A stretch of 64,000 nucleotides of DNA from Deltaproteobacteria bacterium GWA2_38_16 (GTDB lineage Bacteria; Bdellovibrionota; JACOXK01; 2-02-FULL-40-11), in contig MGPE01000011.1 of NCBI GenBank assembly GCA_001797335.1, positions 12,079-76,078 of the forward strand. Reading direction: 5' to 3'. Below the pieces are notes generated by a model. It had not been told where the DNA came from and did no database searches. It was given only the letters and a program-made list of their open reading frames with translations. Position 1 is the first letter of the stretch; each line of letters starts with the position of its first letter. The translations under genes were made by a program, and so were the position numbers. Below are positions 2 to 64,000 of this stretch, piece after piece.

Positions 2-217
2 GTAAAAAAAGAAGGTCTAGCAGGAAAGTGGATATATACCGTCGAAAATAATAAAGCTCATCTTCGTGAAATTAAAATAGGGCTAGAAAGTGCCCAGGAT
101 ATTGAAGTCATAAGTCCCTTAGATACCCAATCCATTGTTGTCACGGCCGGTCAAAGTGAGCTTTTTGATAATGCAACGGTTTCCGTCGTCACACCACCTC
201 CCCATGGAAATCATTAA
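2..217 (+). CDS. RND efflux periplasmic adaptor (membrane-fusion protein), C-terminal fragment; 5' end lies outside the window
   Basis: Frame is open from the window edge to TAA at 215-217 (...IYTVENNKAHLREIKIGLESAQDIEVISPLDTQSIVVTAGQSELFDNATVSVV...). The tail looks like an AcrA/HlyD-type adaptor. Its stop overlaps the ATG (204) of the downstream RND pump. Confidence 0.55.
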   Translation, partial: VKKEGLAGKWIYTVENNKAHLREIKIGLESAQDIEVISPLDTQSIVVTAGQSELFDNATVSVVTPPPHGNH

Positions 218-3200
218 ATTTTTTATTCGACGTCGTATTACGACTTTATTTTTAAATCTAGGCATTTTACTGCTCGGGCTTTTTTGTTTAAATAAAACTT
301 CTATTGATCTTTTTCCACCGATTAACCTTCCTTCGTTAACCATTGCCATTCCAGCACCTGGATTAAGCTCTCAAGATATTGAAAAAAAAATTACGCGTCC
401 TATCGAAGAAATTTTTAATACCCTGCCAAAACTCAATACGATTCGTTCCGAAAGCCAATCCAATCAAGCTACCTTTCAACTAAAATTCAACTGGGGAACT
501 TCTATTGATTTTGCTGCCCTTTCAGTCCGAGAGCTCTTAAAAACCATCTCACTCCCCGAAGAAGCCGAAAGCCCGATGATCTATAGATGGAATCCCTCAG
601 AAGATCCGATTTTAAGAGTCGATATTTCTTCTTCCTACTCCCTCGATAAACTCACGCAAATTGTTGAGCATGTTATCCAACCTCAGCTAGAGCGTATTTC
701 CGGTGTTGCCACAATTCATATTTCTGGGACTCTTCATCCTGAAATCAAAGTAAAGATCGATCCTCAAGAGCTGAGTGGTCGCGGACTCAATCTCTTCCAG
801 GTGAGAGAAATGCTCACCAAAACCAATCTTCAAACCCAAATGGGGACCTATGAAGAAGGAAGATATGCGCTCCCCATTAAACTTAATTCGCAGTTTAAAT
901 CGATAGATGATATTCAAAATCTTCCCCTCTACACAAATCCCAAACATCCTATTCGATTAAAAGATATAGCGCAGATCACCGAAGAATTTGAAGAGACTAA
1001 AACACGTGCTCGTGTTTCAAAACAAGAAAGTATCGGACTTTCTATTAAAAAAGCACAAAATGCCCATACGCTTAATGTTATTAAAGCCATTAAAGAAACG
1101 TTACATGCTATTACCCAAAAAGATCCCCGCCTAACGCTCACCTACTCTAAGGATGATTCCATTTATATTAAGACCAGCCGATCGATTCTCATGTCTAACC
1201 TCTGGCAGGGATCTGTCTTGACCTTTATTGTGGTTCTTATTTTTTTAAGAAATCTCATCGCAACGTTAATTATTTCAATTGCTATTCCAATTTCAGTCAT
1301 TGGAACCTTTGCGCTCATGGAATTTTTTGGTGTCAGTCAAAATGTTTTTTCTCTGGCCGGATTTACCCTTGCAGCCGGCATGGTGGTCGATGGCGCTATC
1401 GTGATCTTAGAAAATATTTATCGACATTGTCAGGAAGAAGGAAAATCTCCCTGGAGAGCAGCGGTGGAAGGAACCGAAGAAATTGCGTTGGGCGTAGTGT
1501 CATCTGTCGTCACTACGATGGCTATTTTTATTCCTGTCGTGCTTTGCATTAAAGGTATTTTTGGAATTTTATTTAAAGATATTGCTTTTACCTTTACTAT
1601 TGCCTTAGCTTTGTCTTTAATTGTCGGTTTTTCTCTTATTCCTTGTGCCTGTGTTCTTTTTTTAAAACGAGAAGGTGGAGTTAAAACTCTTTCTTTTTTA
1701 ACTCATCCCTTTCTCACTAAACCCGCCCTTTGGGTACAACACTTTTTTTTAAATACGCTATCTCATCTCATCGACCATCCTAAAAAAGCTTTTTTCTCTA
1801 TCACCTTTATTTATGGCATTTCTTTTGGATCTATAGCGCTGCTACCAGGATTGGATTTAGTTCCCTTAGGAGAATTTAAAAATTTTTTAATTCAACTTAA
1901 AGGTCCCAAAGGATTTCCCATCGATAAAATGGATCAAAAAACAATGATACTGGAAGAAAAATTATATCAACGCCCAGAAATTAAAACCTTAGCCTCCGAG
2001 ATTGGTCCTCAGACCTCATATCTCTTTGCCACATTAGCTCAGGGGGAAACCTCGTTACCCAAAGCTGATCAGTATTTAAATACTCTCAGAAAAGAATTAA
2101 AACCGCCCGATATCGATACAAAAATTATAGAATTCCAAAAACTTGATACTACCGAAGGATATGGAAAGCCTCTTTCTCTCATTGTTCGGCACTCTGATCC
2201 ACAGATTCGAAAATCTATTCTTCTTCAACTCACAGAGCAGTTTAAAAAAATTCCAGACCTCATTTATATTTCAACGAGCGAAGAAAAAAATGAACCCGAA
2301 ATTCATGTATCCCTAGACCATCAAAGATTAAAAGACCAGGGTCTAACTCCCAAAGAAATTTCCGCTTCTATTTATGCCCATATGAAAGGATTAAAAGGAG
2401 GCGCGCTGGTTCAATCTGAAAAAAATGATATTCCTATTCGCATCATTGAAAAAGAAGAAAAAGAAAAAACGCTAGAAGACCTAAAGCATTTACCTTTTGT
2501 TTCCAAAACCTCTCCTTCTAAAATTATTCCTCTAGAAACATTTTCAGCTTTAAGTCTTTCAGAAGGAGAAACCATTGTTGAGCATACCAATAGTCTTCCC
2601 TCTTCTACTCTTTCTTCCTATTTAAAAACCGATCGACGTTCTTTAGAGCACATTGTCTCTGATATCCATTCTGTCATTAATCAACATCCCACCTGGAAAG
2701 ATTCTATTTTAATTGAAAGCTCGCTTAAAGTATTTAAAGATACATTCTCAGATCTTTTTATTGCGCTCATTATTGCCATTCTTTTGGTCTATATGATTTT
2801 AGCCGCCCAATTTGAATCCTTTTCACAGCCCTTTATCTTAATGCTTACATTTCCTTTAGCCGCTGTGGGGGTTTTGATCGGAGTTAAACTCTGGGGATTG
2901 TATTTAAACGTCATTGTGATGGTGGGGATTATTTTACTGGTCGGGATTACGTGCGATTCTGGGATGCTTCTTATTGAATACACCAATATTTTAAGACGCC
3001 GGGGAATGGATCGAAAAGAAGCTATTTTAACCGCTCTAAAACATCGCATGCGTCCCATTTTTATTACGGTATTAACCGATGTTTTTGGTACCGCTCCTAT
3101 GGCTTTTAGCAGGGGCGCTGGGGCAGAGATGTATCAAGGATTTGGAGTTGTCACCATGTTTGGCCTAACAGCAGCCACGGCTCTTACCCTCATTGCCACC

Positions 3201-3320
3201 CCTATTTTATATATCTTAATTGAAGATGTTAGCGATACGATCCAGCTTAAATGGCTTTGGATGAAAACATTATGGATCCCCGATCAGATCGGGGATGACA
3301 AAAAGGAGCAAACGTTATGA
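204..3320 (+). CDS. RND (AcrB/MdtB-type) efflux permease, copy 1
   Basis: 1038 aa counted from ATG 204. N-terminus MEIIKFFIRRRITT matches the canonical AcrB start. 12-TM architecture with two large periplasmic loops. Motifs FSLAGFTLAAGMVVDGAIVILENI and AAQFESFSQPF are present. The listed 135 TTG start was rejected on homology. Confidence 0.93.
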   Translation: MEIIKFFIRRRITTLFLNLGILLLGLFCLNKTSIDLFPPINLPSLTIAIPAPGLSSQDIEKKITRPIEEIFNTLPKLNTIRSESQSNQATFQLKFNWGTSIDFAALSVRELLKTISLPEEAESPMIYRWNPSEDPILRVDISSSYSLDKLTQIVEHVIQPQLERISGVATIHISGTLHPEIKVKIDPQELSGRGLNLFQVREMLTKTNLQTQMGTYEEGRYALPIKLNSQFKSIDDIQNLPLYTNPKHPIRLKDIAQITEEFEETKTRARVSKQESIGLSIKKAQNAHTLNVIKAIKETLHAITQKDPRLTLTYSKDDSIYIKTSRSILMSNLWQGSVLTFIVVLIFLRNLIATLIISIAIPISVIGTFALMEFFGVSQNVFSLAGFTLAAGMVVDGAIVILENIYRHCQEEGKSPWRAAVEGTEEIALGVVSSVVTTMAIFIPVVLCIKGIFGILFKDIAFTFTIALALSLIVGFSLIPCACVLFLKREGGVKTLSFLTHPFLTKPALWVQHFFLNTLSHLIDHPKKAFFSITFIYGISFGSIALLPGLDLVPLGEFKNFLIQLKGPKGFPIDKMDQKTMILEEKLYQRPEIKTLASEIGPQTSYLFATLAQGETSLPKADQYLNTLRKELKPPDIDTKIIEFQKLDTTEGYGKPLSLIVRHSDPQIRKSILLQLTEQFKKIPDLIYISTSEEKNEPEIHVSLDHQRLKDQGLTPKEISASIYAHMKGLKGGALVQSEKNDIPIRIIEKEEKEKTLEDLKHLPFVSKTSPSKIIPLETFSALSLSEGETIVEHTNSLPSSTLSSYLKTDRRSLEHIVSDIHSVINQHPTWKDSILIESSLKVFKDTFSDLFIALIIAILLVYMILAAQFESFSQPFILMLTFPLAAVGVLIGVKLWGLYLNVIVMVGIILLVGITCDSGMLLIEYTNILRRRGMDRKEAILTALKHRMRPIFITVLTDVFGTAPMAFSRGAGAEMYQGFGVVTMFGLTAATALTLIATPILYILIEDVSDTIQLKWLWMKTLWIPDQIGDDKKEQTL

Positions 3321-3610
3321 TGAAAGCATTTCTCATTATTTGCGACCAAGAACTTCAACCCGAAATGGATTTTTTATTGCGTGCTAATAAAATTGAGCAG
3401 TTTTCTCTTTTTACCCACGTTCAAGGAAAAGGAGAATCTGGACTTAAAACTGGAGATTCCATTGGCCCTGGCTTAAACCATGCTTATTGGATTGTGGTGA
3501 AAGAAAGCCTGGCCACACCATTTTTAAAAGAACTTAAAGAGTTTAAACACAAAAAATTAAAAAATAAGGGCATTCAAGTGTTTATCTTGCCCGTTGAGGA
3601 ATCGTTTTAA
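3317..3610 (+). CDS. Small (97 aa) soluble protein between the two RND genes; tentatively a P-II-like, transporter-associated protein (DUF3240 / PG0541-like)
   Basis: AAGGAG sits 8 nt upstream. ATG overlaps the RND1 stop (ATGA) and its TAA overlaps the RND2 ATG (TAATG). Size and predicted beta-alpha-beta pattern fit small P-II-fold proteins found next to RND pumps. The family assignment is from memory only. Confidence 0.55.
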   Translation: MMKAFLIICDQELQPEMDFLLRANKIEQFSLFTHVQGKGESGLKTGDSIGPGLNHAYWIVVKESLATPFLKELKEFKHKKLKNKGIQVFILPVEESF

Positions 3611-20584: not shown

Positions 20585-21231
20585 TTACGTTTGATGAATA
20601 TTTAAGCCGTATCATTGATACATATACCACCAAAGAATATGAGCATGAACTCATTCGCGCCAAAAAAGATTTTTTTGGTTTTATTGGTACCGTTCATGAA
20701 GAAGATTCTTTTTTTGAAACCTATATGACTGCTTTTATTGAATGGTATATTTTTGATCGCGATATGACTGATAAAGATCTTCCTCCTGTGCGCCTCTATT
20801 ACCGATATAATTTTAAAAATTTTACTGAAGAAGATCAAAAAATCTATAACGACTTTACCAAATTTAGACATTCGTTGTTTGTTGCTAAAAAAGTCACTGC
20901 TTCTACACTCGTGATTCATAATCTTTATGAAGATAAAAAAATATCTATTGAAAATACCTTTCCCACCGCTGGATTTAATGTGGGAGATATTTTTGATGCC
21001 ATTTTAGTTCCCTTCCAGGGACAATGGGCTTTTACCAAAACTTTTTTCTTCCACCCTCAAGAAGTAAAATCTTTTATTATTAAAGAAGTTAAAAAAACAA
21101 GAAATCTGGAACTAAACGTATTGCTTAAAGTCATTATGAGATTACGGCGCTTAAGACTTAAAATGGATCGATACCCTTATGTTTCCCCTTCCCAAATCTA
21201 TACTCCAGAGGAGTTTAATCGCAGTGCCTAA
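20581..21231 (+). CDS. Hypothetical protein (216 aa) inserted between carA and carB
   Basis: GTG start overlaps the carA stop (GTGA). Its TAA overlaps the carB GTG (GTGCCTAA). The protein is soluble with no motif I recognise. Confidence 0.6.
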
Positions 21232-24200
21232 AAGAACCGATATCCAAAAAATTTTAATTCTTGGAGCCGGACCTATTGTGATTGGACAAGCGTGTGAATT
21301 TGATTATTCCGGCACCCAAGCCTGTAAAGCTTTAAAAGAAGAAGGCTATGAAATTATTCTCATGAATTCTAATCCTGCCACCATTATGACCGACCCAGAA
21401 TTTGCAGATAAAACCTATATTGAACCTCTGACCCCTTTTTTCGTTGAAAAAGTCATTGAAAAAGAAAAACCGCATGCCCTTCTTCCCACGCTCGGAGGAC
21501 AAACGGCCCTAAATTTAGCCAAGACGCTGGCTGAAAACGGAATTCTTCAAAAGCATGGCGTAGAACTCATCGGGGCTAAACTTTCTTCTATTCAAAAAGC
21601 AGAGGATCGAGAACTGTTTAAAGAAGCCATGATTGAAATCGGCCTAGAGGTTCCTAAAAGTTCTGTCGTTTCTTCTCTTTCTGAGGCTTTATCTGTCATC
21701 CAATGGGTTGGATATCCTGCCATTATTCGACCTTCATATACGCTGGGAGGACAAGGCGGAAACATCGCCTATAACTTAGAAGAATTTAGAGAAGCCATTG
21801 ATTGGGGATTAAATTCAAGCCCTATTCATGAAGTCCTCATAGAGCAATCCGTTTTAGGATGGAAAGAATTTGAACTCGAAGTAATGAGAGATTTAAAAGA
21901 TAATGTTGTCATTATCTGCTCCATTGAAAATTTTGATCCCATGGGCATTCACACAGGAGATAGTATTACGGTAGCTCCCATCCAAACCTTAACCGATAAA
22001 GAATATCAACTCATGAGAGAGTCAGCGAAAAAAATTATTCGAAAAATGGGCGTAGATACGGGAGGCTCTAACATTCAATTTTCCGTACATCCTAAAACCG
22101 GAAAACAACTCGTCATTGAAATGAATCCAAGAGTTTCTAGAAGTTCTGCATTGGCTTCCAAAGCCACCGGGTTTCCGATTGCTAAAATCGCCGCTAAACT
22201 TGCCGTAGGATATACGCTGGATGAAATTCAAAATGATATTACGAAAGAAACCCCTGCTTCTTTTGAACCCACACTAGATTATGTGGTTACCAAAATCCCT
22301 CGCTTTGCTTTTGAAAAATTTCCTCAATCTGATACAGCACTCACTACTCAAATGAAATCGGTGGGAGAAGTGATGTCTATAGGAAGAACGTTTAAAGAAT
22401 CTTTGCAAAAAGCCATTTGCTCTTTAGAAACAAACCATTTTGGATTTACCTCTCCCAAAGATGCTTCTTTTAGCACAATCGTTAATCAACTTAAAAAACC
22501 AAATGCCGAAAGACTCTTATATATTGGAGAATCTCTGAGGCGTGGATTTACCATAGACCAAATATATGAACTGACCCAGATTGATCCATGGTTTTTAAGG
22601 CACATCCAAGAAATTATTGAATCTGAAAAAGAAGTAAAAGACATAAAACAGGCTAAATCTCTTGGATTCTCGGATTACAGGCTGGGGGTTTTGACCCAAA
22701 CGTCTGAAGAGCAGATTCGAAAGTTACGGAAAGAACAAAACATTACGCCTCAATTTAAAACCGTCGATACCTGTGCAGCAGAATTTGAAGCCCACACCCC
22801 CTATTTTTATTCTACCTACGATGGAGAAGATGAAACAATGAGATCCTTCGCTTCGCTCAGGATGACATCACCAAAAAAGAAAATGATGATCTTGGGTGGT
22901 GGCCCTAATCGTATTGGTCAAGGCATTGAATTTGATTATTGTTGTGTTCATGCAAGCCTTGCCCTCCGAGAAGATGGATTTGAAACCATTATGGTCAACT
23001 GCAATCCAGAAACGGTCAGTACCGATTACGATATTTCTGATAAACTTTATTTTGAACCTCTCACGATTGAAAATATTTTGGCCATTTGTGAAAAAGAAAA
23101 ACCCCAGGGAGTGATTGTTCAATTTGGTGGACAAACTCCTCTTAAACTCTGTAAAGCCTTGGAATATGCCGGTGTTCCCATTATTGGAACCCAACCCTCC
23201 TCTATTCATTTAGCTGAAGACCGGGAAGAATTTTCAAAACTCATTCAAAAACTCAATTTAAAACAGCCTCCGTATTGCATTGCGAGAAATCTTGAGCAAG
23301 CCCGAGAGGTATCCAGAAAATTGGGATATCCTGTCTTGGTTCGTCCCTCATATGTTTTAGGGGGGCGCGCTATGGAAATCGTCTATGATGATGACGCCTT
23401 AGAAAAATTTGTTTTAAAAGCTTTAGAAATTTCAGATCAAAATCAACCCATTCTTCTTGATAAATTTTTAAAAAATGCTCAAGAAATTGATGTCGATGCT
23501 ATTTGTGACGGAAAAGATGTTTTTATTGGTGGCATTATGGAGCATATTGAAGAAGCCGGCATCCATTCAGGAGATAGTACGTGTTCCATTCCTTCCTATA
23601 CTCTAAGCCCAGCTCAACTCGATGAACTTCGGGAACACACCCAAAAAATAGCTTTTGCATTAAATGTCCGTGGACTCATGAATGTTCAATATGCCATTCA
23701 AAATGGGGATATTTATGTTTTAGAAGTAAATCCCAGGGCTTCCAGAACTGTTCCTTTTGCCTCGAAAGCCACAGGTGCCCCCTTGGCAAAAATTGCCGCC
23801 CGAGTCATGGCGGGAAAAACATTAAAAGAACTGGGATACACAAAAGAAATCATCCCCAAAAAAGTCTCTGTCAAAGAAGTGGTATTCCCCTTTATCCGGT
23901 TTCCAGGATGCGATGTGCTTTTAGGCCCCGAAATGAGATCTACAGGAGAAGTGATGGGTTCTCACGAAACTTTTGCCTTAGCTTTTGCTAAAGCGTATAT
24001 CGCTACCGGCTCTGAGCTTCCTTTAAAGGGCACCGCTTTTATCAGCGTAAAAGACGAAGATAAAGAGCGCGTATTTCCTTTAGCCAAAAAATTAAGCGAC
24101 CTTGGATTTAAACTGATGGCCACAGGAGGGACCCATCAATTCTTAAGAGATAAGGGGGTCTTAAGTACCCGCGTTAAAAAAGTATTGGAAGGCCGCCCTA

Positions 24201-24424
24201 ATGTGGTTGATAATCTTAAAAATAATGAAATCGATTTAGTCATCAATACAACCTCTGGCGCCAAAGAAATTTCAGACTCTTATTCCATCCGTCGCACTGC
24301 TCTTCTTAAAAATATCCCCTACTTTACCGTACTTTCTGCAGCCAAAGTCGCCATGGATGCTATTGAGCATCTTCAACAATATCCCTTAACCGTAGAATCC
24401 CTCCAAGAGCGCCTGTCATCGTAG
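21224..24424 (+). CDS. carB: Carbamoyl-phosphate synthase large subunit
   Basis: (M)[32 protein letters not shown], duplicated ATP-grasp halves, and a C-terminal MGS-like domain. GTG 21224 was chosen on N-terminal homology. Confidence 0.97.
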
Positions 24425-31796: not shown

Positions 31797-31850
31797 GTCA
31801 TCCTGAGCGAAGCGAAGGATCTAGATTCTTCAGCTTCGCTTCAGAATGAC
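31797..31850. repeat. Full-length nested-palindromic REP-like element (two inverted GTCATYC-hairpin-GRATC halves), copy E1
   Basis: GTCATCCTGAGCGAAGCGAAGGATC-TAG-ATTCTTCAGCTTCGCTTCAGAATGAC. Intergenic, between the 31090 gene and rpsT. Confidence 0.7.
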
Positions 31851-31896: not shown

Positions 31897-32160
31897 ATGG
31901 CAAATTTAAAATCCGCAATTAAACGCATCCGTCAAAATCGACGTAGAAACGAACGCAATAAATCCGCCAGGTCCACAGTATCTACAGCAATTAAAGCTGT
32001 TCGTTTAGCTATTTCCAAGAAAGATAAAAATGCCGCTCAACTGGCGCTTAAAAAAGCCATCCCCCTTATTGATAAAGCTGCACAAACAAAACTCATTCAT
32101 CCCAATAACGCGAGCCGTAAAATCTCTCGTCTCACTCAACAATTCAACACACTTTCTTAA
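31897..32160 (+). CDS. rpsT: 30S ribosomal protein S20
   Basis: MANLKSAIKRIRQNRRRNERNKS... is the canonical S20 N-terminus. 87 aa. Confidence 0.95.
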   Translation: MANLKSAIKRIRQNRRRNERNKSARSTVSTAIKAVRLAISKKDKNAAQLALKKAIPLIDKAAQTKLIHPNNASRKISRLTQQFNTLS

Positions 32161-32175
32161 ATAAAACCTAAAAAA

Positions 32176-32236
32176 GTCATCCTGAGAACCAAAGGTTCGA
32201 AGGATCTCAGGGATTCTTCACTACGTTCAGAATGAC
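32176..32236. repeat. Full-length REP-like element, copy E2
   Basis: GTCATCCTGAGAACCAAAGGTTCGAAGGATC-TCAGG-GATTCTTCACTACGTTCAGAATGAC. It lies between the convergent rpsT and holA genes. Confidence 0.7.
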
Positions 32237-36277: not shown

Positions 36278-36341
36278 GTCATTCCCCGACTTGATCGGGG
36301 AATCTAGAAAAATGGATCCTCCGGTCAAGCCGGAGGATGAC
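36278..36341. repeat. Full-length REP-like element, copy E3 (different hairpin cores)
   Basis: GTCATTC-CCCGA-CTTGA-TCGGG-GAATC ... GGATC-CTCCGG-TCAAG-CCGGAG-GATGAC. It lies between convergent genes, 2 nt from the DUF1015 stop. Confidence 0.7.
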
Positions 36342-54825: not shown

Positions 54826-54859
54826 GTCATCCCGGAAGTGCGAAGCACTATCCGGGATC
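54826..54859. repeat. Solo half-copy of the REP-like element (E4) with a nested hairpin
   Basis: GTCATCC-CGGA-AGTGC-GAA-GCACT-ATCCG-GGATC. It sits in the 62-nt gap between two co-directional minus-strand genes. Confidence 0.6.
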
Positions 54860-57832: not shown

Positions 57833-57834
57833 TC

Positions 57835-58659
57835 ATGAAAACTAAAATCATTATATTTCTATGGAGCATCCTCATACTACCCTCACTCGTAGCACATGCA
57901 GACTTACAAAACTTTGTCAGGCTACATGATTACTTTGATAATACGCTTAAAATTCAAGCCGGTAGTTTTGTGGGGCGTGGGTTAACGTCAAACACAGAAT
58001 ATCAAATGACGCTTCTTCAATATTCCAATGAAGCCAAAGAAACCTTTGTAGTCGTTCTTGAAAAGCTCGATAACAATCTGAACATCGTACATACTCGAGC
58101 TTATTTTGCGACTCCCATCACTGACACTCAAAGCGATTTATTTGAATTCGTGTTGGATCGAGAAAAAACCATGCTTCTTCCACCTTTCGAAGGAAAAGCG
58201 CCCATGACGCTAAACCTCAGTAAAGTTGAAAAAGATCACATGATGTTAGAGCTAAAACCCTTGGTAAGCGATCCACAGTTTAGTGAAATTATTCGATTTC
58301 ATTGGGGCAGAACCCCTCAAGTGTATGTGGGGCTAAGAGATACCCGATTTATCGCTGGAAAAAATGAAGTCCGCTTGTGGAGTGATAACGAAGGCTCTTG
58401 GGCAGACCTCACGATTGCAGACACTCCAAACGCCGGAGGAACTTTCCGAGTTTCTGACGAAGGAATTCCAGGGCTTTTTGTTTTAAGACGCATTGTGAAA
58501 GACCGCTATAGCCAAGAAGAAAGTGAACAAATTGCCTATGTTCTTTATTTCTCACGGCGTGTTTCCACCGCATTTTTAGGAATGGGACGAAGCAGCACAA
58601 AATTTGTAACTACACTTCCCACACTTTCAGAAAATAGCTGGGAACTCAATCAGGATTAA
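57835..58659 (+). CDS. Exported hypothetical protein P2 (274 aa, beta-rich)
   Basis: Starts 2 nt after the P1 stop. RBS AGGAG. Signal peptide MKTKIIIFLWSILILPSLVAHA|D. Confidence 0.6.
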   Translation: MKTKIIIFLWSILILPSLVAHADLQNFVRLHDYFDNTLKIQAGSFVGRGLTSNTEYQMTLLQYSNEAKETFVVVLEKLDNNLNIVHTRAYFATPITDTQSDLFEFVLDREKTMLLPPFEGKAPMTLNLSKVEKDHMMLELKPLVSDPQFSEIIRFHWGRTPQVYVGLRDTRFIAGKNEVRLWSDNEGSWADLTIADTPNAGGTFRVSDEGIPGLFVLRRIVKDRYSQEESEQIAYVLYFSRRVSTAFLGMGRSSTKFVTTLPTLSENSWELNQD

Positions 58660-58662
58660 GTC

Positions 58663-60717
58663 ATGAAGCACATTCGCATTATCCTTGTCATTTTTGTCAT
58701 TCTGAGTGCCGTAGGCACGAAGAATCTCTACGCCCAAAATTCCATCTTCGACGAAGGGGTCGATACCACCATCCGCCCAGAAGATATCACTCAAGATCTC
58801 TACCAGTGGGCACAAAACACTGCTTTAAAACTTAAAAAAGTCCTAGAAGATATGCGAAATTTCGACCTTCCTGAAAAAAGAGCATTCTTGATTAAACACA
58901 TTCAAGAAAGTGTCGAAGAAGCTCAAAATATTAGAGAGCTTCTCCTCATGCGCTTTGCTTTAAATCGCGCTCTAGATTTAAATAAATCTTTTTCTGATCA
59001 AGACGATGAACTTTCTGTAAACTATGTTTTAATCCCTGCAATTAGACAAGCTATTGCGCTCTATGAAAGAGAAGATCTCCCCTATTTAACAGCCACCCTC
59101 AATCAACAAAATATCCAAGACATTCCTGTCCCCTCTTATGCTGCTTTTACTAAAAATAATATTAGCTATTTACTGAATATCTCAAACCTTACTCCTTCTT
59201 ATGTGAGCCAATTTGAAATTTTAAAAAATACAATTGTTTGGGTAGTTAATGACTTACTTCGATCTTCTGAAACCAAAAGAAATCCTACAAACTCTACTTT
59301 AATTTTAAATCTTGAAGAACTCTATTTTAAATATGAAAACACACCTATTGAAAACATCGATTATGTTCTCAATAATAAAATCAGAAGTGCTCTTTTAAAA
59401 ACTCAACATACGATGGCCATTGAAAAAAATGCCAAAGAAATGCCTCCGTTTATTCTCTACACCGCCCCTAATCACACATCGGATTCCACAAATTCCCCCT
59501 TTACTCATCAACTCCCCGAAAAACCCAAAGAACCTGGGATTCTTCAAAGAATTTTTGAAGAACGGTCTATTGAAAGAAGATACGAAGACATATCCATAGA
59601 ACATCTGAGCATTGGAGCAGGCTTGAGACAGATTCAAGCAGAAAGCTCTCAAGGTAAAACTGAAACCAGAAATGTTCTCCATATTCCACTCAATATTCTC
59701 CGAGTAAAACATCCTAATAAAGGAGAGTTTTATGTTTTAAAATCAGAATTCGACATGACTCAAAATCAAGAATTTCTCCAACACAACCTAAAACTTTTAG
59801 GCGGACATTATCTTTGGAATATTGATAATGGCCCTATCTCCCTTGGCCCTTATGCCAATCTTGTCACCTTTAAACGAGATGAACTGAGAAATTTAGAATT
59901 TGGACATTGGCTAGAATTGGGGCTGGCTTTAAACATCCAACCTTTTAAAAACAAACGTTTTTTTATTCATGCCAAAGCCTATGCACACCCATCTTTCAAT
60001 GCACAAGACAGTCAATATTCAGAGCTGAATCATATGAATCTTCCCCAAGATGCCTCTCCCGAGTGGAAAGAAGAACTAAAACAACTAGAGGCCAAACACT
60101 ATAATGCTGAAACGGCCGCCATTAAAGCCTCTGAAGCCAAAAGAGATTCTCTCATGGCCACGGGAGAATATTATATTTATACAGAACTGAATGGTAACCA
60201 ATGGGTAGCTCACAATGGAGAGAGATACTGGAGAACCTACGGCCACAAAGTTTTAAATGACTCTGATCGCACAACACTCTTAAAGACAGATAAAATAAAT
60301 GATTTCAAAGAGTATGGATTTATGACGTTAGAAATGGATGCCGAATGGATAAAGTCTATTAAAAGACAAGATGATCTTATTTTACAATTTGGAGGACGCA
60401 TTACCAATATGCACGTAGATGGTTATGATAACAACACCTTACCCCAAGTTCATCGAGATCGTTATAGCAATAAAGCCACAGAAACCAGCTCATTTTTCAC
60501 ATTACAGTACAGACTTTACGATATAGGCAGTCGAGACTTTCTGGACTCATATAACGACAGCAAGCTCTTTAATATGGGCCCTGTTCTTGTCATTTCTTAT
60601 GAAACCCTAGATAACCCTCTAGCTAAAAATCTCATGAGCTTTTTTAATCCTGACGCCGCCTCCCATGCGATCACGAAAACTGAAACATGGAGTATGTATG
60701 TTAAATTCGATTGGTAA
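58663..60717 (+). CDS. Exported paralog P3 (684 aa): helical N-domain plus beta-rich C-domain ending in ...VKFDW
   Basis: Starts 3 nt after the P2 stop. Signal peptide MKHIRIILVIFVILSAVGTKNLYA|Q. Shares the IFDEGVDTTIR, IQESVEEAQ..RELLLMRFALNRAL, DLPYL and KYENTP motifs with P4 and P5. The C-terminal aromatic residue is OMP-like. Confidence 0.65.
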   Translation: MKHIRIILVIFVILSAVGTKNLYAQNSIFDEGVDTTIRPEDITQDLYQWAQNTALKLKKVLEDMRNFDLPEKRAFLIKHIQESVEEAQNIRELLLMRFALNRALDLNKSFSDQDDELSVNYVLIPAIRQAIALYEREDLPYLTATLNQQNIQDIPVPSYAAFTKNNISYLLNISNLTPSYVSQFEILKNTIVWVVNDLLRSSETKRNPTNSTLILNLEELYFKYENTPIENIDYVLNNKIRSALLKTQHTMAIEKNAKEMPPFILYTAPNHTSDSTNSPFTHQLPEKPKEPGILQRIFEERSIERRYEDISIEHLSIGAGLRQIQAESSQGKTETRNVLHIPLNILRVKHPNKGEFYVLKSEFDMTQNQEFLQHNLKLLGGHYLWNIDNGPISLGPYANLVTFKRDELRNLEFGHWLELGLALNIQPFKNKRFFIHAKAYAHPSFNAQDSQYSELNHMNLPQDASPEWKEELKQLEAKHYNAETAAIKASEAKRDSLMATGEYYIYTELNGNQWVAHNGERYWRTYGHKVLNDSDRTTLLKTDKINDFKEYGFMTLEMDAEWIKSIKRQDDLILQFGGRITNMHVDGYDNNTLPQVHRDRYSNKATETSSFFTLQYRLYDIGSRDFLDSYNDSKLFNMGPVLVISYETLDNPLAKNLMSFFNPDAASHAITKTETWSMYVKFDW
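58696..58726 (+). repeat. REP-like half-element inside the P3 signal-peptide codons
   Basis: GTCATTCTGA-GTGCC-GTA-GGCAC-GAAGAATC encodes VILSAVGTKN. The flanks match those of the intergenic elements E1 and E2. Confidence 0.6.
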
Positions 60718-62776
60718 AACACTCTTTCTTCTTCTGGTCATTCTGAGTGCCATCGGCACGAAGAATCTCTATGCACAAGAAGCATCTTCTATCTTCGACG
60801 AAGGCGTCGATACCACGATTCGCGCAGAAGACATTGGGGATGATGTACGCATGTGGGCACAGAATACGGCAATTCAACTGACTAAAGCCCTTAGAAAAGT
60901 AAAACAACTGAGTAGCGATCAAAAAAGAAAATTCTTAGAAGAGGCCATCCAAGAATCTGTTGAAGAAGCACAAACTCAAAGAGAGTTGCTTTTAATGCGC
61001 TTTGCTTTAAATCGCGCCCTGGCTATCAATAAATTTTTTGATGATACGAGTTCAGAACTGGCATACCAATATGTTTTAATCCCCAGTATTAAAGAAGCTA
61101 TCGCTCTTTATAATGAAGCGGATCTCCCCTACTTAAATGCCAATCAAGATAGAGAGATCCCTACTCAAGAAATTGGAGTTCCACCCTATGCCGCCTTTAC
61201 TCGAGCTAACATGCATTACCTTTTAAATATCTCTAACATTCACCCATCTTATAAAACACAATTTGAACTATTAAGGCTTTCTATTGTGTGGATGGTAAAT
61301 GATATTTTGCGCTCCCCTCAAGCCAAAAGAAACTCTACTAATGCCAATATTATTTTAGATTTAAAAAAAATCTATTCTAAATATGAAAACACACCTGAAA
61401 GCGACATTACCTATACGCTCAATAACAGCTTAAGAGCAGAAATCTTAGAAGCCTATAAAACATTAGTTGTAGAAAGTAATGCGGCAAAAATCCCGGCCTT
61501 TATGGTATATTCCGCTCCAAACCATCCTCACGAAAATATTGAAATAGCTGCGCCAAAACCTAAAGAAGAAAATAGCCTTCTCACCCGAATGCTTGCAATG
61601 AAAAAAGACGCCAAAGAATATTCCGCCACTCGCTATGGCTATTTTAATACAGGCATTGGGGGGGGAACATATACGCAGACAAGCGACAATGAAGAAAAAA
61701 CTCAAGGAATGATTGCTCTTCAATTTAAAGTTTTTCATTATGAAACACCCGAAGCGGGGCAAGAAGCCTATGGTGCAAAAGGGGATTTTATTCGAGTGGG
61801 CACAGAATTCCCCAGACAAAATATAGAAATTTTAGGTGCAAAATGGGCTTGGCCTGTGAGTGACCATCTTGCTCTAGGCCCTTATATTAGAATTCTTAAA
61901 CGCACACGAGATAATACACGCTTAACAGAAGATACCCGCTGGTTAAATGCAGGAATCAATTGGCAAATTCAACCGTTTGATTCTAAAAAATTAACAATTA
62001 ATATTGCTACCTATTATGTACCAGATCCAAAATGGGGCGCGGTAACATTAAAACATTTCACAATGGGGGATGTATCTGAAGGATGGAGAAATGATTTAGC
62101 CGCTCGTGAGGCTCAGTATCAAGATGAATGGACACAACAAATTCAATCTTCACAACAAAGGGCTACTCAACTCCAAGGCGTGGGATATAGACGTTACACA
62201 GATGAACAAGGGCGCGAGTGGATAGATGTCCCTGGTGCAGGAAGAGAAAACGATCATAAAATTCTTACTGATGGTGATCGAAACACCCTCATTAGCCAAG
62301 AAAATATGTTTGAAAGGCGACGTCGCGCTTTTGTTGTAGAAGCCGATGCACGGCTCGTTGGATCTTTTAAAAGATATAATGACATTGCGTTAACCCTGGG
62401 GGGTTATTACGAAAACATGATGATGGAAGATTTTAAGCGTAATTTGCCACAAACAAATGCTCAGATCTATAAAACACGTTTTGAAAATCATGGACTCCAT
62501 GGCACTCTTGAATTTCGTCTATGGGACTCCGAAAGAAAAGGAATAAATCATTACTGGGATAGACCTACCTATTCCTATCGAGACGAAGAATATACCTGGT
62601 CTGCCCCCGATTATGACAAAAAAGATGTTACGTTTGGCCCAACCCTTGTTATTTCCTATGACATGGATGATAACCAAATTGGAAAAAACTTTGTAAGTTA
62701 TTTTAACGCTGACAGAGCCAAAGACATACCTTCTCAAACAGAAGTTCTTCAAGTGTACATAACATTCGATTGGTAA
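60698..62776 (+). CDS. Exported paralog P4 (692 aa), same two-domain architecture as P3, ending in ...ITFDW
   Basis: ATG 60698 has GGAG 5 nt upstream and overlaps the P3 3' end by 20 nt. Signal peptide MLNSIGKTLFLLLVILSAIGTKNLYA|Q. The listed ORF starts at 60665. Confidence 0.65.
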   Translation: MLNSIGKTLFLLLVILSAIGTKNLYAQEASSIFDEGVDTTIRAEDIGDDVRMWAQNTAIQLTKALRKVKQLSSDQKRKFLEEAIQESVEEAQTQRELLLMRFALNRALAINKFFDDTSSELAYQYVLIPSIKEAIALYNEADLPYLNANQDREIPTQEIGVPPYAAFTRANMHYLLNISNIHPSYKTQFELLRLSIVWMVNDILRSPQAKRNSTNANIILDLKKIYSKYENTPESDITYTLNNSLRAEILEAYKTLVVESNAAKIPAFMVYSAPNHPHENIEIAAPKPKEENSLLTRMLAMKKDAKEYSATRYGYFNTGIGGGTYTQTSDNEEKTQGMIALQFKVFHYETPEAGQEAYGAKGDFIRVGTEFPRQNIEILGAKWAWPVSDHLALGPYIRILKRTRDNTRLTEDTRWLNAGINWQIQPFDSKKLTINIATYYVPDPKWGAVTLKHFTMGDVSEGWRNDLAAREAQYQDEWTQQIQSSQQRATQLQGVGYRRYTDEQGREWIDVPGAGRENDHKILTDGDRNTLISQENMFERRRRAFVVEADARLVGSFKRYNDIALTLGGYYENMMMEDFKRNLPQTNAQIYKTRFENHGLHGTLEFRLWDSERKGINHYWDRPTYSYRDEEYTWSAPDYDKKDVTFGPTLVISYDMDDNQIGKNFVSYFNADRAKDIPSQTEVLQVYITFDW
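60737..60767 (+). repeat. REP-like half-element inside the P4 signal-peptide codons
   Basis: GTCATTCTGA-GTGCC-ATC-GGCAC-GAAGAATC encodes VILSAIGTKN. Confidence 0.6.
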
Positions 62777-62781
62777 AATAT

Positions 62782-64000
62782 ATGAATAAAAATATTTTTA
62801 TACTCTTTTTCGTCATTCTGAGTGCCATCGGCACGAAGAATCTCTATGCGCAGGACTCCATCTTCGACGAGGGGGTAGATACCACCATTCGCGCAGAAGA
62901 CATTGGCGATGATGTACGCATGTGGGCACAAAATACGGCATTGAAACTTAAAAAACTTTTGAAAGAAGTTAAAAAAGGCACTTTTCTAGAAAAAAGAGTC
63001 CTGATTCTTCAAACCATTCAAGAAAGCGTTGAAGAAGCTAAAGATAGACGAGAGCTTCTCTTAATGCGCTTTACCTTAAACCGGGCGCTAAAACTGGAAG
63101 AAGAATTTAATAATCAACATGATGCCTTGGTGGTTCACCACATTTTACTCCCTGCTGTAAAACAAGCCATTTCTCTTTATGAACAAAGCGATCTGCCTTA
63201 TTTACAATTTAACAGTGGAAAACCGGAGGCCGAAATTGAGCCCCCTAATTATGCAGCCTATACCAAAACCAATATTGGATATCTTTTAAATGCTTCTAAT
63301 ATGAATAAGACTTTAGAGGGCCAATTTAACATTGCCAAAATATCTTTAGCCTGGGTGGCCAAAGACATTCTTCGCTCCCCTAAAGCCAAAAGAAACTCTG
63401 CTAATGCTGATATTGTCATCCAACTTCAAAAACTTTTAACGGAACTAGAACCTATTCAAAAATGCAACATTAATTACAAACTTAACAACAAACTCAGAAA
63501 CACACTCTTAGATCTTTTAGAAAAAATTGTCCCAGAAACATCCTCCGAACATATTGTTCCCCCACTGTGTTATCTAACACCCAAAGATCTTGTAGTAGAT
63601 TTAGAAAAAGAGCTTGAAAAGATCCTTGATCTTACGACGTATATAAATAGCATTTCAGAACGCGATGGAATACTGCGTCAGTGGTATTATCAACATCAAC
63701 CTCAAATAACCATACCGACAATAAGCACTCTTTGTTGCTATTTGAACAGTTCAGAAATAAAAAATGAACTTATACGAGATTGGTTTGATATAAAGTATCA
63801 ATCTTTGAATTTAAAACAACTACTGAACTTATGCGAACAATCTAATTACCATAGCACAAGAGATTACATGATTAAAAAATATTTTAATGCTAAATATGAA
63901 ACTCTATCCACAGAAGAAACAAAAACATTAGCCGCCTGGTCAAATAGCTATGAACTAAAAGATTATATCTTAAGCAAAAAAGTACAATTAAATATGTCAC
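62782..64000 (+). CDS. Exported paralog P5 (partial, more than 406 aa): shared N-domain, then a different C-terminal region of about 33-residue repeats; 3' end lies outside the window
   Basis: It is not in the ORF track because no stop occurs before the window end. My hand translation from ATG 62782 is open to 63999. MNKNIFILFFVILSAIGTKNLYA|QDSIFDEGVDTTIRAEDIGDDVRMWAQNTA... is a paralog of P3 and P4 over about 260 aa. Confidence 0.6.
   Translation, partial: MNKNIFILFFVILSAIGTKNLYAQDSIFDEGVDTTIRAEDIGDDVRMWAQNTALKLKKLLKEVKKGTFLEKRVLILQTIQESVEEAKDRRELLLMRFTLNRALKLEEEFNNQHDALVVHHILLPAVKQAISLYEQSDLPYLQFNSGKPEAEIEPPNYAAYTKTNIGYLLNASNMNKTLEGQFNIAKISLAWVAKDILRSPKAKRNSANADIVIQLQKLLTELEPIQKCNINYKLNNKLRNTLLDLLEKIVPETSSEHIVPPLCYLTPKDLVVDLEKELEKILDLTTYINSISERDGILRQWYYQHQPQITIPTISTLCCYLNSSEIKNELIRDWFDIKYQSLNLKQLLNLCEQSNYHSTRDYMIKKYFNAKYETLSTEETKTLAAWSNSYELKDYILSKKVQLNMS
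62812..62842 (+). repeat. REP-like half-element inside the P5 signal-peptide codons
   Basis: Identical to the P4 copy: GTCATTCTGAGTGCCATCGGCACGAAGAATC. Confidence 0.6.

What the first reader, a model, noticed from the sequence alone, without database searches (positions are those of the whole stretch)
58696..58726. Intergenic-type REP-like hairpin element embedded in the signal-peptide codons of all three paralogs
The 31-nt sequence GTCATTCTGA-GTGCC-NNN-GGCAC-GAAGAATC occurs at 58696, 60737 and 62812. Each copy lies 20-37 nt downstream of the preceding cistron's stop codon and encodes the h/c-region VILSA(V/I)GTKN of the signal peptide. Its flanks (GTCATYCTGA ... GAAGRATC) match those of the half-units of the intergenic palindromic elements at 31797 and 32176. 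It can fold as ATTCT/AGAAT plus GTGCC/GGCAC stems with tandem G-A mismatches. So the same DNA appears to carry two functions: a structured repeat at each cistron boundary (a possible mRNA stabiliser, processing site or attenuator) and protein-export information. Either a repeat element was captured as coding sequence, or signal-peptide DNA seeded the repeat family. I do not know this situation to have been described.
Basis: seen in the sequence. Interest (0 to 1): 0.7.

Follow-up and report, generated by a model that had tools for sequence, protein, structure and literature searches.

The report
Hairpin repeat reused as signal-peptide codons
A small hairpin-forming DNA repeat that is scattered through this bacterial genome has been taken up, in frame, as part of the export signal of a family of tandemly duplicated secreted proteins; this is a real and tidy case of a phenomenon (repeats embedded in genes) that is already known in outline.

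Summary
The 31-mer GTCATTCTGAGTGCC-NNN-GGCACGAAGAATC occurs at 58696, 60737 and 62812, in frame, as V-I-L-S-A-(V/I)-G-T-K-N of three tandem paralogs. A fourth copy lies just beyond the window.

It belongs to a dispersed hairpin repeat family: GTC tag, AT-initiated palindrome, then C. The window holds 12 copies. A covariance model built only from copies outside signal peptides finds all three at E about 1e-5, and nothing else.

The family matches the published CGTC-tagged REP superfamily (Neisseria dRS3/NTS, Rickettsia RPE-4/6, "Ssn-related motifs"). The repeat was therefore captured by the gene; the signal peptide did not seed it.

Constraint acts on the nucleotides. Across four paralogs, 0 of 10 element codons vary synonymously, against 71% elsewhere.

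Sixteen of 23 family signal peptides carry such elements. They come in different variants, both orientations and nested remnants. Elements also sit in frame in CarB, LipB and E2 linkers.

What the hairpin does, at DNA or RNA level, remains inferred. No Ssn nuclease gene was found in the sequence held. In-frame repeats and one MITE-derived signal peptide are already published, so this is a new variant of a known kind, of moderate interest.

The parts
58696..58726 (+). 31-nt hairpin repeat copy 1 (loop GTA), codons 12-21 plus the first base of codon 22 of paralog 1 (VILSAVGTKN-L)
   Evidence: Exact pattern hit. Folds as predicted. Found by model R1, which was trained without signal-peptide copies: 33.2 bits, E 1.4e-5.
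60737..60767 (+). 31-nt hairpin repeat copy 2 (loop ATC), in the signal peptide of paralog 2
   Evidence: R1 30.8 bits, E 5.5e-5. The same junction was recovered on independent metagenome contigs L001 and L014.
62812..62842 (+). 31-nt hairpin repeat copy 3 (loop ATC), in the signal peptide of paralog 3
   Evidence: R1 34.1 bits, E 8.1e-6.
58663..58734 (+). Signal-peptide codons of paralog 1 (MKHIRIILVIFVILSAVGTKNLYA | Q...). The element supplies 11 of the 24 residues.
   Evidence: ORF and translation. The n/h/c layout and the A-Q junction align with family members that have no element. No signal-peptide predictor was available.
60698..60775 (+). Signal-peptide codons of paralog 2 (MLNSIGKTLFLLLVILSAIGTKNLYA | Q...). 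The start overlaps the end of paralog 1 by 20 nt.
62782..62850 (+). Signal-peptide codons of paralog 3 (MNKNIFILFFVILSAIGTKNLYA | Q...)
58663..60717 (+). Paralog 1 gene (684 aa): conserved all-alpha N-terminal domain plus a C-terminal part ending ...YVKFDW
60698..62776 (+). Paralog 2 gene (692 aa)
62782..64000 (+). Paralog 3 gene (409 aa in full; it runs off the window end). Paralogs 4-7 follow on the same contig.
32176..32206 (+). Intergenic family copy with the same 31-nt architecture (inner stem GAACC/GGTTC). It forms an inverted pair with 32212-32236, downstream of rpsT.
32212..32236 (-). Intergenic family copy, partner of 32176
31797..31821 (+). Intergenic 25-nt family copy, upstream of rpsT, paired with 31824-31850
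31824..31850 (-). Intergenic family copy, partner of 31797
22842..22866 (-). Family copy in frame inside carB (peptide RSFASLRMT). This is a 7-residue insertion in the inter-domain linker relative to E. coli CarB.
3275..3299 (-). Family copy read through as the C-terminal tail (WIPDQIGDD...) of the 1061-aa ORF 135..3320
36278..36304 (+). Intergenic family copy (perfect-stem type), in an inverted pair with 36315-36341 between convergent genes
36315..36341 (-). Intergenic family copy, partner of 36278
54826..54859 (+). Intergenic 34-nt family copy between dcd and the next gene

Best explanation
**Proposal.** The 31-mer is a copy of a dispersed, oriented hairpin repeat. The layout is an unpaired GTC tag, a palindrome that begins AT and ends AT, then an unpaired C. 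It is of the CGTC-tagged REP / dRS3-NTS kind and was captured in frame as the hydrophobic core and c-region of a Sec-type signal peptide.

**History (inferred).**
- The capture happened in an ancestor of a subfamily of tandemly duplicated secreted proteins.
- Paralogs 1, 2, 3 and 5 inherited it.
- In other members, other variants of the same repeat family replaced or nested into one half of it, in either orientation.

**Why it is tolerated (inferred).** Reading frame 1 of the forward element (V-I-L/P-S...) and one frame of the reverse element (I-P-A-F-A-G-M-T) are hydrophobic. Elsewhere the genome keeps copies only at other permissive places, namely linkers and tails, and often in a hydrophilic frame (H-P-E-R-S-E-G-S).

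**Shown here.**
- Membership of the repeat family.
- In-frame coding of the signal peptide.
- Recurrence across the protein family.
- Nucleotide-level conservation of the stem and tag beyond what the peptide needs.

**Inferred only.**
- The hairpin is still recognised as nucleic acid. The most likely form is single-stranded DNA bound by the unidentified protein that maintains this repeat family.
- The precedent is that the Neisseria NTS is bound and cut by the GIY-YIG nuclease SsnA through the same GTC and C determinants.
- On this reading it would mark the unit boundaries of the paralog array.

**Confidence.** The figure of 0.5 is for the whole statement, including the inferred DNA-level recognition. 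For the shown part alone (a captured family repeat that is both coding and constrained at nucleotide level) I would put it at about 0.9.
For: **Family membership**
- A generic hairpin definition that does not use the 31-mer's inner sequence finds 33 elements in 165 kb of this clade. Markov simulations give 0.1.
- Model R1, built from 16 copies outside signal peptides, retrieves all 12 window copies and nothing else. The three signal-peptide copies score 30.8-34.1 bits (E 8e-6 to 5.5e-5), the same as the training member at 32176.

**Agreement with the known kind**
- The published CGTC REPs have a (C/T)GTC tag and stems starting with AT. They equal dRS3 and RPE-4/6 (PMC3733652).
- In the Neisseria NTS, the three bases before the palindrome govern cleavage. 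The C right after the palindrome governs binding (PMC11893778). Both features are invariant in this family.
- Perfect-stem copies in the same genome fit the published SRM motif: 10 hits against 0.15 expected. Three of these hits lie in family signal peptides: the reverse elements of paralogs 4 and 6 and of P0012.

**Nucleotide-level constraint**
- Among paralogs 1, 2, 3 and 5, the paralogs differ synonymously at 40-45% of shared codons.
- The 10 element codons show 0 synonymous variation, against 62 of 87 elsewhere. The longest invariant run elsewhere is 3, and the permutation P is 0.00085.
- 0 of 28 non-loop bases differ, while 2 of 3 loop bases differ between paralog 1 and the others, 15-21 of the 30 upstream bases differ in every pair, and 3-5 of the next 14 bases differ in five of the six pairs (paralogs 2 and 5 are identical there).

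**Repeated capture and turnover**
- 16 of 23 family signal peptides read at DNA level carry an element or remnant, 9 forward and 8 reverse. The two conserved neighbouring secreted-protein genes carry none, 0 of 8.
- Left-half-only remnants exist: L135:1654 holds the first 23 nt and L004:8039 the first 17 nt.
- Right-half-only remnants also exist: GGCACGAATCTC follows a reverse element in L136, L137 and L003.

**In-frame copies in housekeeping genes**
- CarB has a 7-aa insertion relative to E. coli.
- LipB has a clean 9-aa insertion relative to 2qhs.
- The E2 acyltransferase carries copies in its linkers.

**Direction of capture**
- The exact 31-mer is found nowhere else in the JGI metagenomes except at this same locus.
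- The sibling 25-mer is in at least 120 viral contigs.
Against: - **No recognising protein.** No Ssn-like GIY-YIG gene was found in about 190 kb of clade sequence, nor in 1 Mb of viral contigs carrying the 25-mer. Only a small part of each genome was available, and the query sequences were recalled from memory.
- **Motif mismatch.** The 31-mer and all CTGAG...CGAAG variants with tandem G.A mismatches do not fit the published SRM motif. They also differ from the described 8-9 bp stems with 4-5 nt loops.
- **Orientation.** Orientation in the signal peptides is mixed, 9 forward and 8 reverse. This argues against a strand-specific DNA role tied to the gene.
- **No net insertion.** Signal peptides without the element, such as paralog 7, have the same length as those with it. 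No clean insertion can be shown at this site.
- **Alternative source of identity.** Perfect identity of four copies could come from short-patch gene conversion rather than selection.
Confidence: 0.5

Rival explanations
1. The hairpin acts in the mRNA, as classical REP elements do. It sits 20-37 nt past the stop codon of the upstream cistron in a polycistronic transcript. There it would block 3'-to-5' exonucleases or serve as a processing site, setting the relative amounts of each paralog. It is simply also translated as part of the next gene.
For: - Its position just after the upstream stop codon is the typical place for REPs between co-directional genes (PMC3733652).
- The RNA hairpin is stable, -12.2 kcal/mol with z about -3.6, and forms within 111-nt contexts.
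- A palindrome folds in the RNA in either orientation, which fits the mixed orientations seen across the family.
- Synonymous-site conservation fits an RNA structure as well as a DNA one.
- In paralog 4 the single stem mismatch is G.U on the mRNA strand and C.A on the tagged strand (read from the sequence).
Against: - A pure RNA stem would not need the invariant unpaired GTC tag and trailing C.
- The junction between paralogs 6 and 7 has a 164-nt spacer and no element at all.
- No transcript data were available.
- There is no T-run, so it is not a terminator.
Confidence: 0.25
2. The element has no present function as nucleic acid. It is a dead captured repeat that now serves only as signal-peptide codons. 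The four copies are identical because of recent short-patch gene conversion, or hairpin-stimulated copy correction, among the paralog 5' ends.
For: - Gene conversion clearly happens in this array. Paralogs 1 and 4 are 95.7% identical over 855 nt, against about 57% synonymous identity for other pairs.
- Paralogs 2 and 5 are identical for at least 14 nt past the element.
- Contig L001 carries a paralog 4 / paralog 1 hybrid.
- Degenerate copies exist elsewhere in the family: paralog 4, P0005, and a decayed SHPERSSGS in E2.
Against: - The identical block coincides with the element to the base at its 5' edge in all four paralogs. Random-level divergence begins immediately upstream, and synonymous changes begin within 5 nt downstream. 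Conversion tracts would not be expected to end at the same place four times.
- The first 17-23 nt are also identical in two other organisms whose proteins are only about 45% identical.
- The loop varies while the stem does not.
Confidence: 0.2
3. The resemblance to the intergenic repeats is a coincidence of the codon usage of hydrophobic peptides, or the signal-peptide DNA itself gave rise to the repeat family.
For: - The forward translation VILS... is a plausible hydrophobic segment in its own right.
Against: - Pattern and model statistics exclude chance: 0 hits in shuffles and E about 1e-5 from a model trained without these copies.
- The repeat family is phylogenetically far broader than the protein family (PMC3733652; PMC11893778).
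- The family also occurs in reverse orientation and in other reading frames.
Confidence: 0.02

Closest known systems
CGTC-tagged REP superfamily (Di Nocera, De Gregorio and Rocco 2013, PMC3733652), which includes Neisseria dRS3 and Rickettsia conorii RPE-4/RPE-6
   Same: - Short (24-34 nt) dispersed palindromes with a (C/T)GTC tag at one end.
- Stems begin with A-T and T-A pairs, and there is a short unpaired tail.
- Stem and loop sequences are heterogeneous.
- Copies are often arranged as inverted dimers and are mostly intergenic, close to the 3' ends of genes.
- Some copies sit inside genes, including at protein N-termini.
   Different: - The 31-mer has a 5 bp + tandem G.A + 5 bp stem with a 3-nt loop, not an 8-9 bp perfect stem with a 4-5 nt loop.
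- Its tail is CTC rather than CCA.
- The host is an uncultivated 'Deltaproteobacteria' MAG lineage that the paper does not list.
- The paper regarded many N-terminal copies as probably extragenic (wrong start calls). Here the copy must be translated, because the conserved mature N-terminus follows it with no other start codon.
- Recurrent use as signal peptide within one family is not reported there.
Neisseria Transformation Sequence (NTS) / Ssn-related motifs and the GIY-YIG ssDNA nuclease SsnA (Chenal et al. 2025, PMC11893778)
   Same: - The architecture is GTC + ATTC... palindrome ...GAAT + C. These are the positions that govern SsnA cleavage and binding.
- Copies cluster around genes for surface or secreted proteins.
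- The element-gene-element layout occurs (seen around rpsT in the window).
- Perfect-stem copies in this genome fit the published SRM motif.
   Different: - The 31-mer itself does not fit the SRM motif.
- No ssn gene was found in the sequence held.
- The paper does not mention coding or signal-peptide copies.
- Cleavage by an Ssn enzyme is untested here.
Rickettsia palindromic elements inserted in frame in protein genes (Ogata et al. 2000, as cited in PMC3733652 and PMC2229807)
   Same: - Palindromic repeats are tolerated in frame at permissive places in proteins. CarB, LipB and the E2 linkers here behave in the same way.
   Different: - RPE-1 is 100-150 bp and adds a surface-exposed peptide segment.
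- Here a 24-40 nt element supplies a functional targeting segment, and no net insertion can be shown in the signal peptide.
Yersinia YPAL/RU-2 MITE forming part of a predicted signal peptide (YPO1552; Delihas, reviewed in PMC2229807)
   Same: - A mobile repeat read in frame contributes hydrophobic residues to a predicted signal peptide of an exported protein.
   Different: - That case is a single locus with a 168-bp MITE of an unrelated family.
- Here there are many paralogs and orthologs, several element variants and both orientations.
- Here there is also evidence that the hairpin nucleotides stay constrained.
Classical REP/BIME elements as mRNA stabilisers in operons (E. coli malE-malF type; my own knowledge, not tested here)
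   Same: - A stable hairpin sits shortly after the stop codon of an upstream cistron in a polycistronic unit.
   Different: - Those REPs carry a GTAG tag, are associated with RAYT transposases and are extragenic.
- Here the hairpin lies inside the next coding sequence.

Membership tests
CGTC-tagged REP superfamily (dRS3 / RPE-4 / RPE-6) | Terminal (C/T)GTC tag at one end of the palindrome | tested here: met
   GTC is invariant in all 21 aligned copies. The base before it is T, G and C in the three signal-peptide copies; the paper allows TGTC variants, which covers copy 1, and copy 3 has the canonical CGTC, but copy 2 reads GGTC, which the paper does not list.
CGTC-tagged REP superfamily (dRS3 / RPE-4 / RPE-6) | Stem whose first two pairs are A-T and T-A | tested here: met
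   ATYC...GRAT in every copy.
CGTC-tagged REP superfamily (dRS3 / RPE-4 / RPE-6) | Stem of 8-9 bp, loop of 4-5 nt, tail about CCA | tested here: not met
   The 31-mer has 5 bp + G.A/A.G + 5 bp, a 3-nt loop and a CTC tail. Perfect-stem copies in the same genome (3275, 36278, 36315, and the reverse elements of paralogs 4 and 6) do meet it, with tails CCAT/CCAG. The 31-mer is therefore a variant subtype.
CGTC-tagged REP superfamily (dRS3 / RPE-4 / RPE-6) | Many dispersed copies, mostly intergenic, often as inverted dimers | tested here: met
   12 copies in 64 kb and 33 in 165 kb, against 0.1 expected. Dimers lie at 31797/31824, 32176/32212 and 36278/36315.
NTS / Ssn-related motif (target of GIY-YIG nuclease Ssn) | Fits the published degenerate SRM motif HGTCWYN(0-2)YYVSBRHN(0-5)WNVSBRGN(0-2)RNCYNB | tested here: not met
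   The three 31-mers and the copies at 31797 and 32176 do not match. Ten other copies in the clade do, against 0.15 expected.
NTS / Ssn-related motif (target of GIY-YIG nuclease Ssn) | Three conserved bases before the palindrome and a C directly after it (determinants of cleavage and binding) | tested here: met
   GTC and C are invariant in the family alignment. Their roles are taken from PMC11893778.
NTS / Ssn-related motif (target of GIY-YIG nuclease Ssn) | A cd10448 GIY-YIG (ssn) gene in the genome, usually flanked by the repeats | tested here: inconclusive
   None was found in the window or in about 190 kb of related loci by motif, Pfam or phmmer. Only a few percent of each genome was available, and the phmmer queries were recalled from memory.
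NTS / Ssn-related motif (target of GIY-YIG nuclease Ssn) | Strand-specific binding and cleavage as single-stranded DNA | not testable with these tools
   This needs the purified enzyme and oligonucleotides.
In-frame palindromic insertions of the Rickettsia RPE kind | The element appears as an in-frame insertion relative to homologs that lack it | tested here: inconclusive
   Met for CarB (7 aa) and LipB (9 aa). For the signal peptide, members without the element have equal length, so replacement rather than net insertion is seen.
REP-type mRNA stabiliser or processing site | Stable hairpin shortly downstream of the stop codon of a co-transcribed upstream gene | tested here: met
   20, 36 and 37 nt after the stops. 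RNA energy -12.2 kcal/mol.
REP-type mRNA stabiliser or processing site | Transcript ends or differential stability at the hairpin | not testable with these tools
   No transcript data were available.
Intrinsic terminator / attenuator | G+C-rich stem followed by a run of T | tested here: not met
   The stem is followed by TCTAYGC. The consensus scan reports none of the three sites.
Sec-type signal peptide | Basic n-region, hydrophobic h-region, c-region with small residue at -1, aligned with the cleavage site of relatives | tested here: inconclusive
   Read from the sequences: MKHIR / IILVIFVILSAVG / TKNLYA|Q. The A|Q junction aligns across 23 family members, with or without the element. No signal-peptide predictor or experiment was available.

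The most novel reading that the evidence does not exclude
The hairpin is an active dual-use module. An Ssn-like or other single-strand-DNA hairpin-recognising enzyme still binds it inside the signal-peptide codons. Purifying selection keeps it because it sets the ends of recombination tracts, or serves as the landing pad for further element insertions, at each unit of a cassette-like array of secreted proteins. These proteins share an N-terminal domain and swap C-terminal modules. On this reading, signal-peptide DNA would be a preferred and selected harbour for a genome-dynamics signal, not merely a tolerated one.
Probability: 0.15. Interest if true: 0.7.

Novelty: new variant of a known kind. 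Interest (0 to 1): 0.45.

Why it matters
- **Overlapping constraints in 31 bases.** One short stretch obeys two codes: a protein-export peptide and a conserved nucleic-acid hairpin of a widespread repeat family.
- **Wider reach of the repeat family.** The dRS3/NTS-type family is extended to an uncultivated groundwater lineage and to a G.A-bulged subtype that the published search motif misses.
- **A use for selfish hairpin repeats.** They can supply ready-made hydrophobic segments, which suggests one route by which secreted-protein families renew their leaders.
- **Annotation.** Peptides such as [17 protein letters not shown] and HPERSEGS in predicted proteins flag repeat-derived segments. These can be genuine coding sequence.
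- **A test case for the Ssn field.** If the hairpins prove to be recognised by an Ssn-type nuclease, the locus would test whether such sites shape recombination among surface-protein paralogs outside Neisseria.

Tried and rejected
- **Rfam.** The gathering-threshold scan of the window found only one tRNA; no described RNA family covers the element.
- **Terminator or attenuator reading.** Rejected, because no T-run follows the stem.
- **Ssn / GIY-YIG gene search.** Nothing was found by any of these routes, so the Ssn link stays an inference:
  - motif regex on ORFs;
  - Pfam scan of ten small window ORFs;
  - phmmer with three GIY-YIG sequences recalled from memory, against about 190 kb of clade loci and 1 Mb of viral contigs.
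- **Exact 31-mer in JGI metagenomes.** The only hit was the same locus, L014. The variant is not visibly mobile outside the family.
- **Context census in viral contigs.** A census of the sibling 25-mer in 120 viral contigs was too noisy to use, because high-GC contigs give spurious long ORFs. I use it only as evidence of wide distribution.
- **Contig L001 (P0001).** It looked at first like an ortholog with a swapped signal peptide at the element border. In fact it is a paralog 4 / paralog 1 hybrid whose switch lies 462-537 nt into the gene. It says nothing about the element.
- **Paralog 7 leader.** Its element-free leader shows no convincing trace of a decayed element: about 38% identity over 45 nt, by eye.
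- **Protein function.** Pfam finds nothing for the paralogs. The N-terminal domain model has no match to solved structures. The family's function stays unknown.
- **Literature.** Sequence-string searches for the peptide translations found nothing.


Full report
**1. The observation**

The pattern GTCATTCTGAGTGCCNNNGGCACGAAGAATC has exactly three matches in the window, at 58696, 60737 and 62812 on the + strand. All 28 specified bases match, and shuffles gave none.

The three copies lie in frame near the 5' ends of three tandem paralogous genes. They encode V-I-L-S-A-(V/I)-G-T-K-N, followed by L-Y-A-Q.

- The probable starts are ATG 58663, ATG 60698 (GGAG lies 8 nt upstream; it overlaps the end of paralog 1 by 20 nt) and ATG 62782.
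- The hairpins begin 37, 20 and 36 nt after the preceding stop codons.
Energy is -6.6 kcal/mol as DNA and -12.2 as RNA, with z about -3.5.

The window is part of contig DOGW01000005.1 of the MAG GCA_003528305.1, labelled 'Deltaproteobacteria bacterium'. The contig continues with paralogs 4-7, and paralog 5 carries a fourth identical 31-mer.

**2. It is a copy of a dispersed repeat family**

The flank pattern GTCATYCTGA-N(5-30)-GAAGRATC gives 8 hits against 0 expected. The intergenic copy at 32176 has the same 10+5+3+5+8 layout with a fully compensated inner stem, GAACC/GGTTC.

A generic definition uses only GTCATYCY, a 5-nt arm, its reverse complement, and then C. It finds 12 copies in the window and 33 in 165 kb of non-redundant sequence from this clade. 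Markov simulations give 0.1.

The inner stems differ from copy to copy but stay complementary. The unpaired GTC, the AT-initiated outer stem and the trailing C are invariant.

I built a covariance model from 16 copies that are not in signal peptides.

- It finds all 12 window copies and nothing else.
- The three signal-peptide copies score 30.8-34.1 bits, E 8e-6 to 5.5e-5.
- That equals the score of the training copy at 32176.

Chance resemblance through codon usage is therefore excluded.

**3. What the family is**

A text search for the perfect-stem variant led to Chenal et al. 2025 (PMC11893778).

- The Neisseria NTS is CGTCATTCCCGCGMAVGCGGGAATCYRG and contains dRS3.
- The small GIY-YIG nuclease SsnA binds and cuts it, as single-stranded DNA only.
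- The three bases before the palindrome govern cleavage, and the C after it governs binding.
- Cutting of incoming DNA at NTS shortens homology and lowers recombination.

Di Nocera et al. 2013 (PMC3733652) had classed such repeats as CGTC-tagged REPs.

- The tag is often TGTC, stems start with AT, and the tail is about CCA.
- The class equals dRS3 and Rickettsia RPE-4/6.
- They noted copies inside genes, including at N-termini. They suspected many of the N-terminal copies to be extragenic.

In my data the perfect-stem copies fit the published SRM motif, with 10 hits against 0.15 expected. The 31-mer and the other CTGAG...CGAAG copies with G.A mismatches do not fit it.

The 31-mer is therefore a variant subtype of a known superfamily. 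A 25-nt sibling (GTCATYCTGAGCGNAGCGAAGRATC) is present in at least 120 viral-metagenome contigs, so the subtype is widespread.

**4. Captured repeat, not a seed**

The protein family is tiny: 22 relatives among 5.8 billion proteins, all from a few groundwater MAGs. The repeat family spans phyla. The signal peptide cannot be the source of the repeat.

**5. Constraint on the nucleotides**

Paralogs 1, 2, 3 and 5 differ synonymously at 40-45% of the codons that encode the same residue.

- Among 97 residue-conserved degenerate columns of the N-terminal 290 residues, 62 vary synonymously.
- The ten element codons (V I L S A . G T K N L) never vary.
- The longest invariant run elsewhere is 3. The permutation P for a run of 10 is 0.00085. 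A simple product gives about 4e-6.

At base level:

- 0 of 28 non-loop bases differ in any pair;
- 2 of 3 loop bases differ between paralog 1 and the others;
- 15-21 of the 30 bases upstream differ;
- 3-5 of the next 14 bases differ, except that paralogs 2 and 5 are identical there.

It comes out the other way.

**6. Recurrence and turnover in the protein family**

The signal peptides of relatives read like translations of other variants and orientations of the same repeats:

- (W)IPAFAGMT, ILAFAGMT and IPAFSGMT, which are reverse elements;
- VIPSTARNL, VIPSIARDL and VILSDPTRGGARNL, which are forward elements.

At DNA level, 16 of 23 signal peptides hold an element or a remnant, 9 forward and 8 reverse. 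None of the 8 signal peptides of the two conserved upstream secreted-protein genes does.

Composite leaders show the history.

- L135:1654 has the first 23 nt of the 31-mer, then CCTT, then a complete second element.
- L004:8039 has a reverse element, two 21-nt truncated left halves (one of them GTCATTCTGAGTGCCAT...), and a complete element.
- L136, L137 and L003:11227 have a reverse element followed by (G)GCACGAATCTCTTCGCCCAA, the right half of the 31-mer type.

The simplest reading is that the 31-mer type was already in the leader of an ancestor of this subfamily. Other family elements later replaced or nested into one half of it.

**7. Other in-frame copies**

- The copy at 22842 lies in carB and adds 7 residues (RSFASLR) in the linker between the oligomerisation domain and the second pre-ATP-grasp domain, relative to E. 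coli CarB.
- The copy at 3275 is read through as the C-terminal tail of a 1061-aa ORF.
- In the sister genome (L005), LipB has a clean 9-residue insertion SHPERSEGS, and both linkers of an E2 acyltransferase carry copies.
- A linker in family member P0019 carries SHSEAQPKNL.

Leaders use the hydrophobic frames, while these linkers use the hydrophilic frame H-P-E-R-S-E-G-S. This fits survival only where the translation is tolerated. The numbers are small.

**8. How it probably works**

Shown:

- membership of the repeat family;
- in-frame coding of the signal peptide;
- nucleotide-level constraint;
- recurrence across the family.

Inferred: the invariant unpaired GTC and C are the determinants used by SsnA on NTS. 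They suggest that the element is recognised by a protein as a single-stranded DNA hairpin. Such a signal at every unit of a recombining paralog array could delimit recombination tracts. Paralogs 1 and 4 share 855 nt at 95.7%, and contig L001 is a hybrid of the two.

Against this: no ssn gene was found in the sequence held. Orientation in the leaders is mixed, and the 31-mer does not fit the SRM motif.

The RNA-level rival is a REP-like stabiliser or processing site for the upstream cistron. It fits the position after the stop codon, and it fits the fact that the stem forms in RNA in either orientation. It cannot be tested here. It does not explain the conserved unpaired tag.

The third rival is a dead element homogenised by short-patch conversion. 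The block of identity ends at the element's 5' edge in all four genes, which weakens this rival. So does the identity of the first 17-23 nt in organisms whose proteins are about 45% identical.

**9. Comparison with what is known, and novelty**

In-frame palindromic repeats are known: Rickettsia RPEs and intragenic GTAG/CGTC REPs (PMC3733652). One MITE that partly forms a predicted signal peptide has been reported (YPO1552; PMC2229807).

New here:

- the host lineage;
- the G.A-bulged subtype;
- systematic use, in several variants and both orientations, as the leader of one paralogous family;
- the synonymous-site evidence that the hairpin is still constrained inside coding sequence.

I rate it a new variant of a known kind, with moderate interest (0.45).

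Noticed in passing
window 22842-22866 (- strand), inside carB 21179..24424: A repeat copy sits in frame in carbamoyl-phosphate synthase large subunit (peptide RSFASLRMT). It gives a 7-residue insertion relative to E. coli CarB, in the linker before the second half of the enzyme.
   Followed up: yes
window 3275-3299 (- strand), end of ORF 135..3320: A repeat copy is translated as the last residues (WIPDQIGDDKKEQTL) of a 1061-aa ORF. The next ORF (3317..3610, weak P-II-like Pfam match) starts 18 nt after the element.
   Followed up: partly
window 31797-31850 and 32176-32236, flanking ORF 31897..32160: An 87-aa ORF that looks like ribosomal protein S20 (judged by eye) is bracketed on both sides by inverted pairs of the repeat. 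This is an element-gene-element layout like that described for NTS in Neisseria.
   Followed up: no
L005 (GCA_001798085.1) 5141-5332, 6256-6280, 8693-8717: In the sister genome, LipB carries a clean 9-residue SHPERSEGS insertion, and the E2 acyltransferase has copies in both flexible linkers (one of them decayed). Four copies crowd the 3' part of an aroE-like ORF, which may be truncated by them.
   Followed up: partly
L001 1928-3991 (ENA contig k141_1037827): Protein P0001 is a hybrid: the 5' end of paralog 4 (to about nt 462) joined to the body of paralog 1 (from about nt 537), followed by paralog 2. This is either a real recombinant strain or an assembly chimera. The identical stretch at the switch is only about 75 nt.
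   Followed up: partly
window 58687-58695 and L002 12075-12083: Paralogs 1 and 5 have a 9-nt partial duplicate of the element's 5' end (GTCATTTTT, GTCATTGCC) directly upstream of the 31-mer. L004:8090-8131 has two 21-nt tandem truncated left halves. These may be footprints of slippage or of the insertion mechanism.
   Followed up: no
window 58738-59457 and homologs (alignment A2): The conserved N-terminal domain of the paralogs is predicted with confidence as an all-alpha bundle (pLDDT 89.7). It has no Pfam match and no significant match among solved structures. The C-terminal parts differ between paralogs: tails ending in F/W, WD40-like, FGE-sulfatase and HEAT-like.
   Followed up: partly
window 56067-58659, and the same gene order in L003, L004 and L006: The paralog array always follows a DUF4423 gene and two small secreted-protein genes (about 304-339 aa and 253-274 aa). 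This is a conserved locus of unknown function in four genomes.
   Followed up: no
L002 9169-10004 (just past the window end): An 85-aa and a 193-aa gene with overlapping stop and start interrupt the array between paralogs 3 and 4. They were not characterised.
   Followed up: no
This repeat subtype is therefore widespread, and it also occurs on sequences classed as viral.
   Followed up: partly
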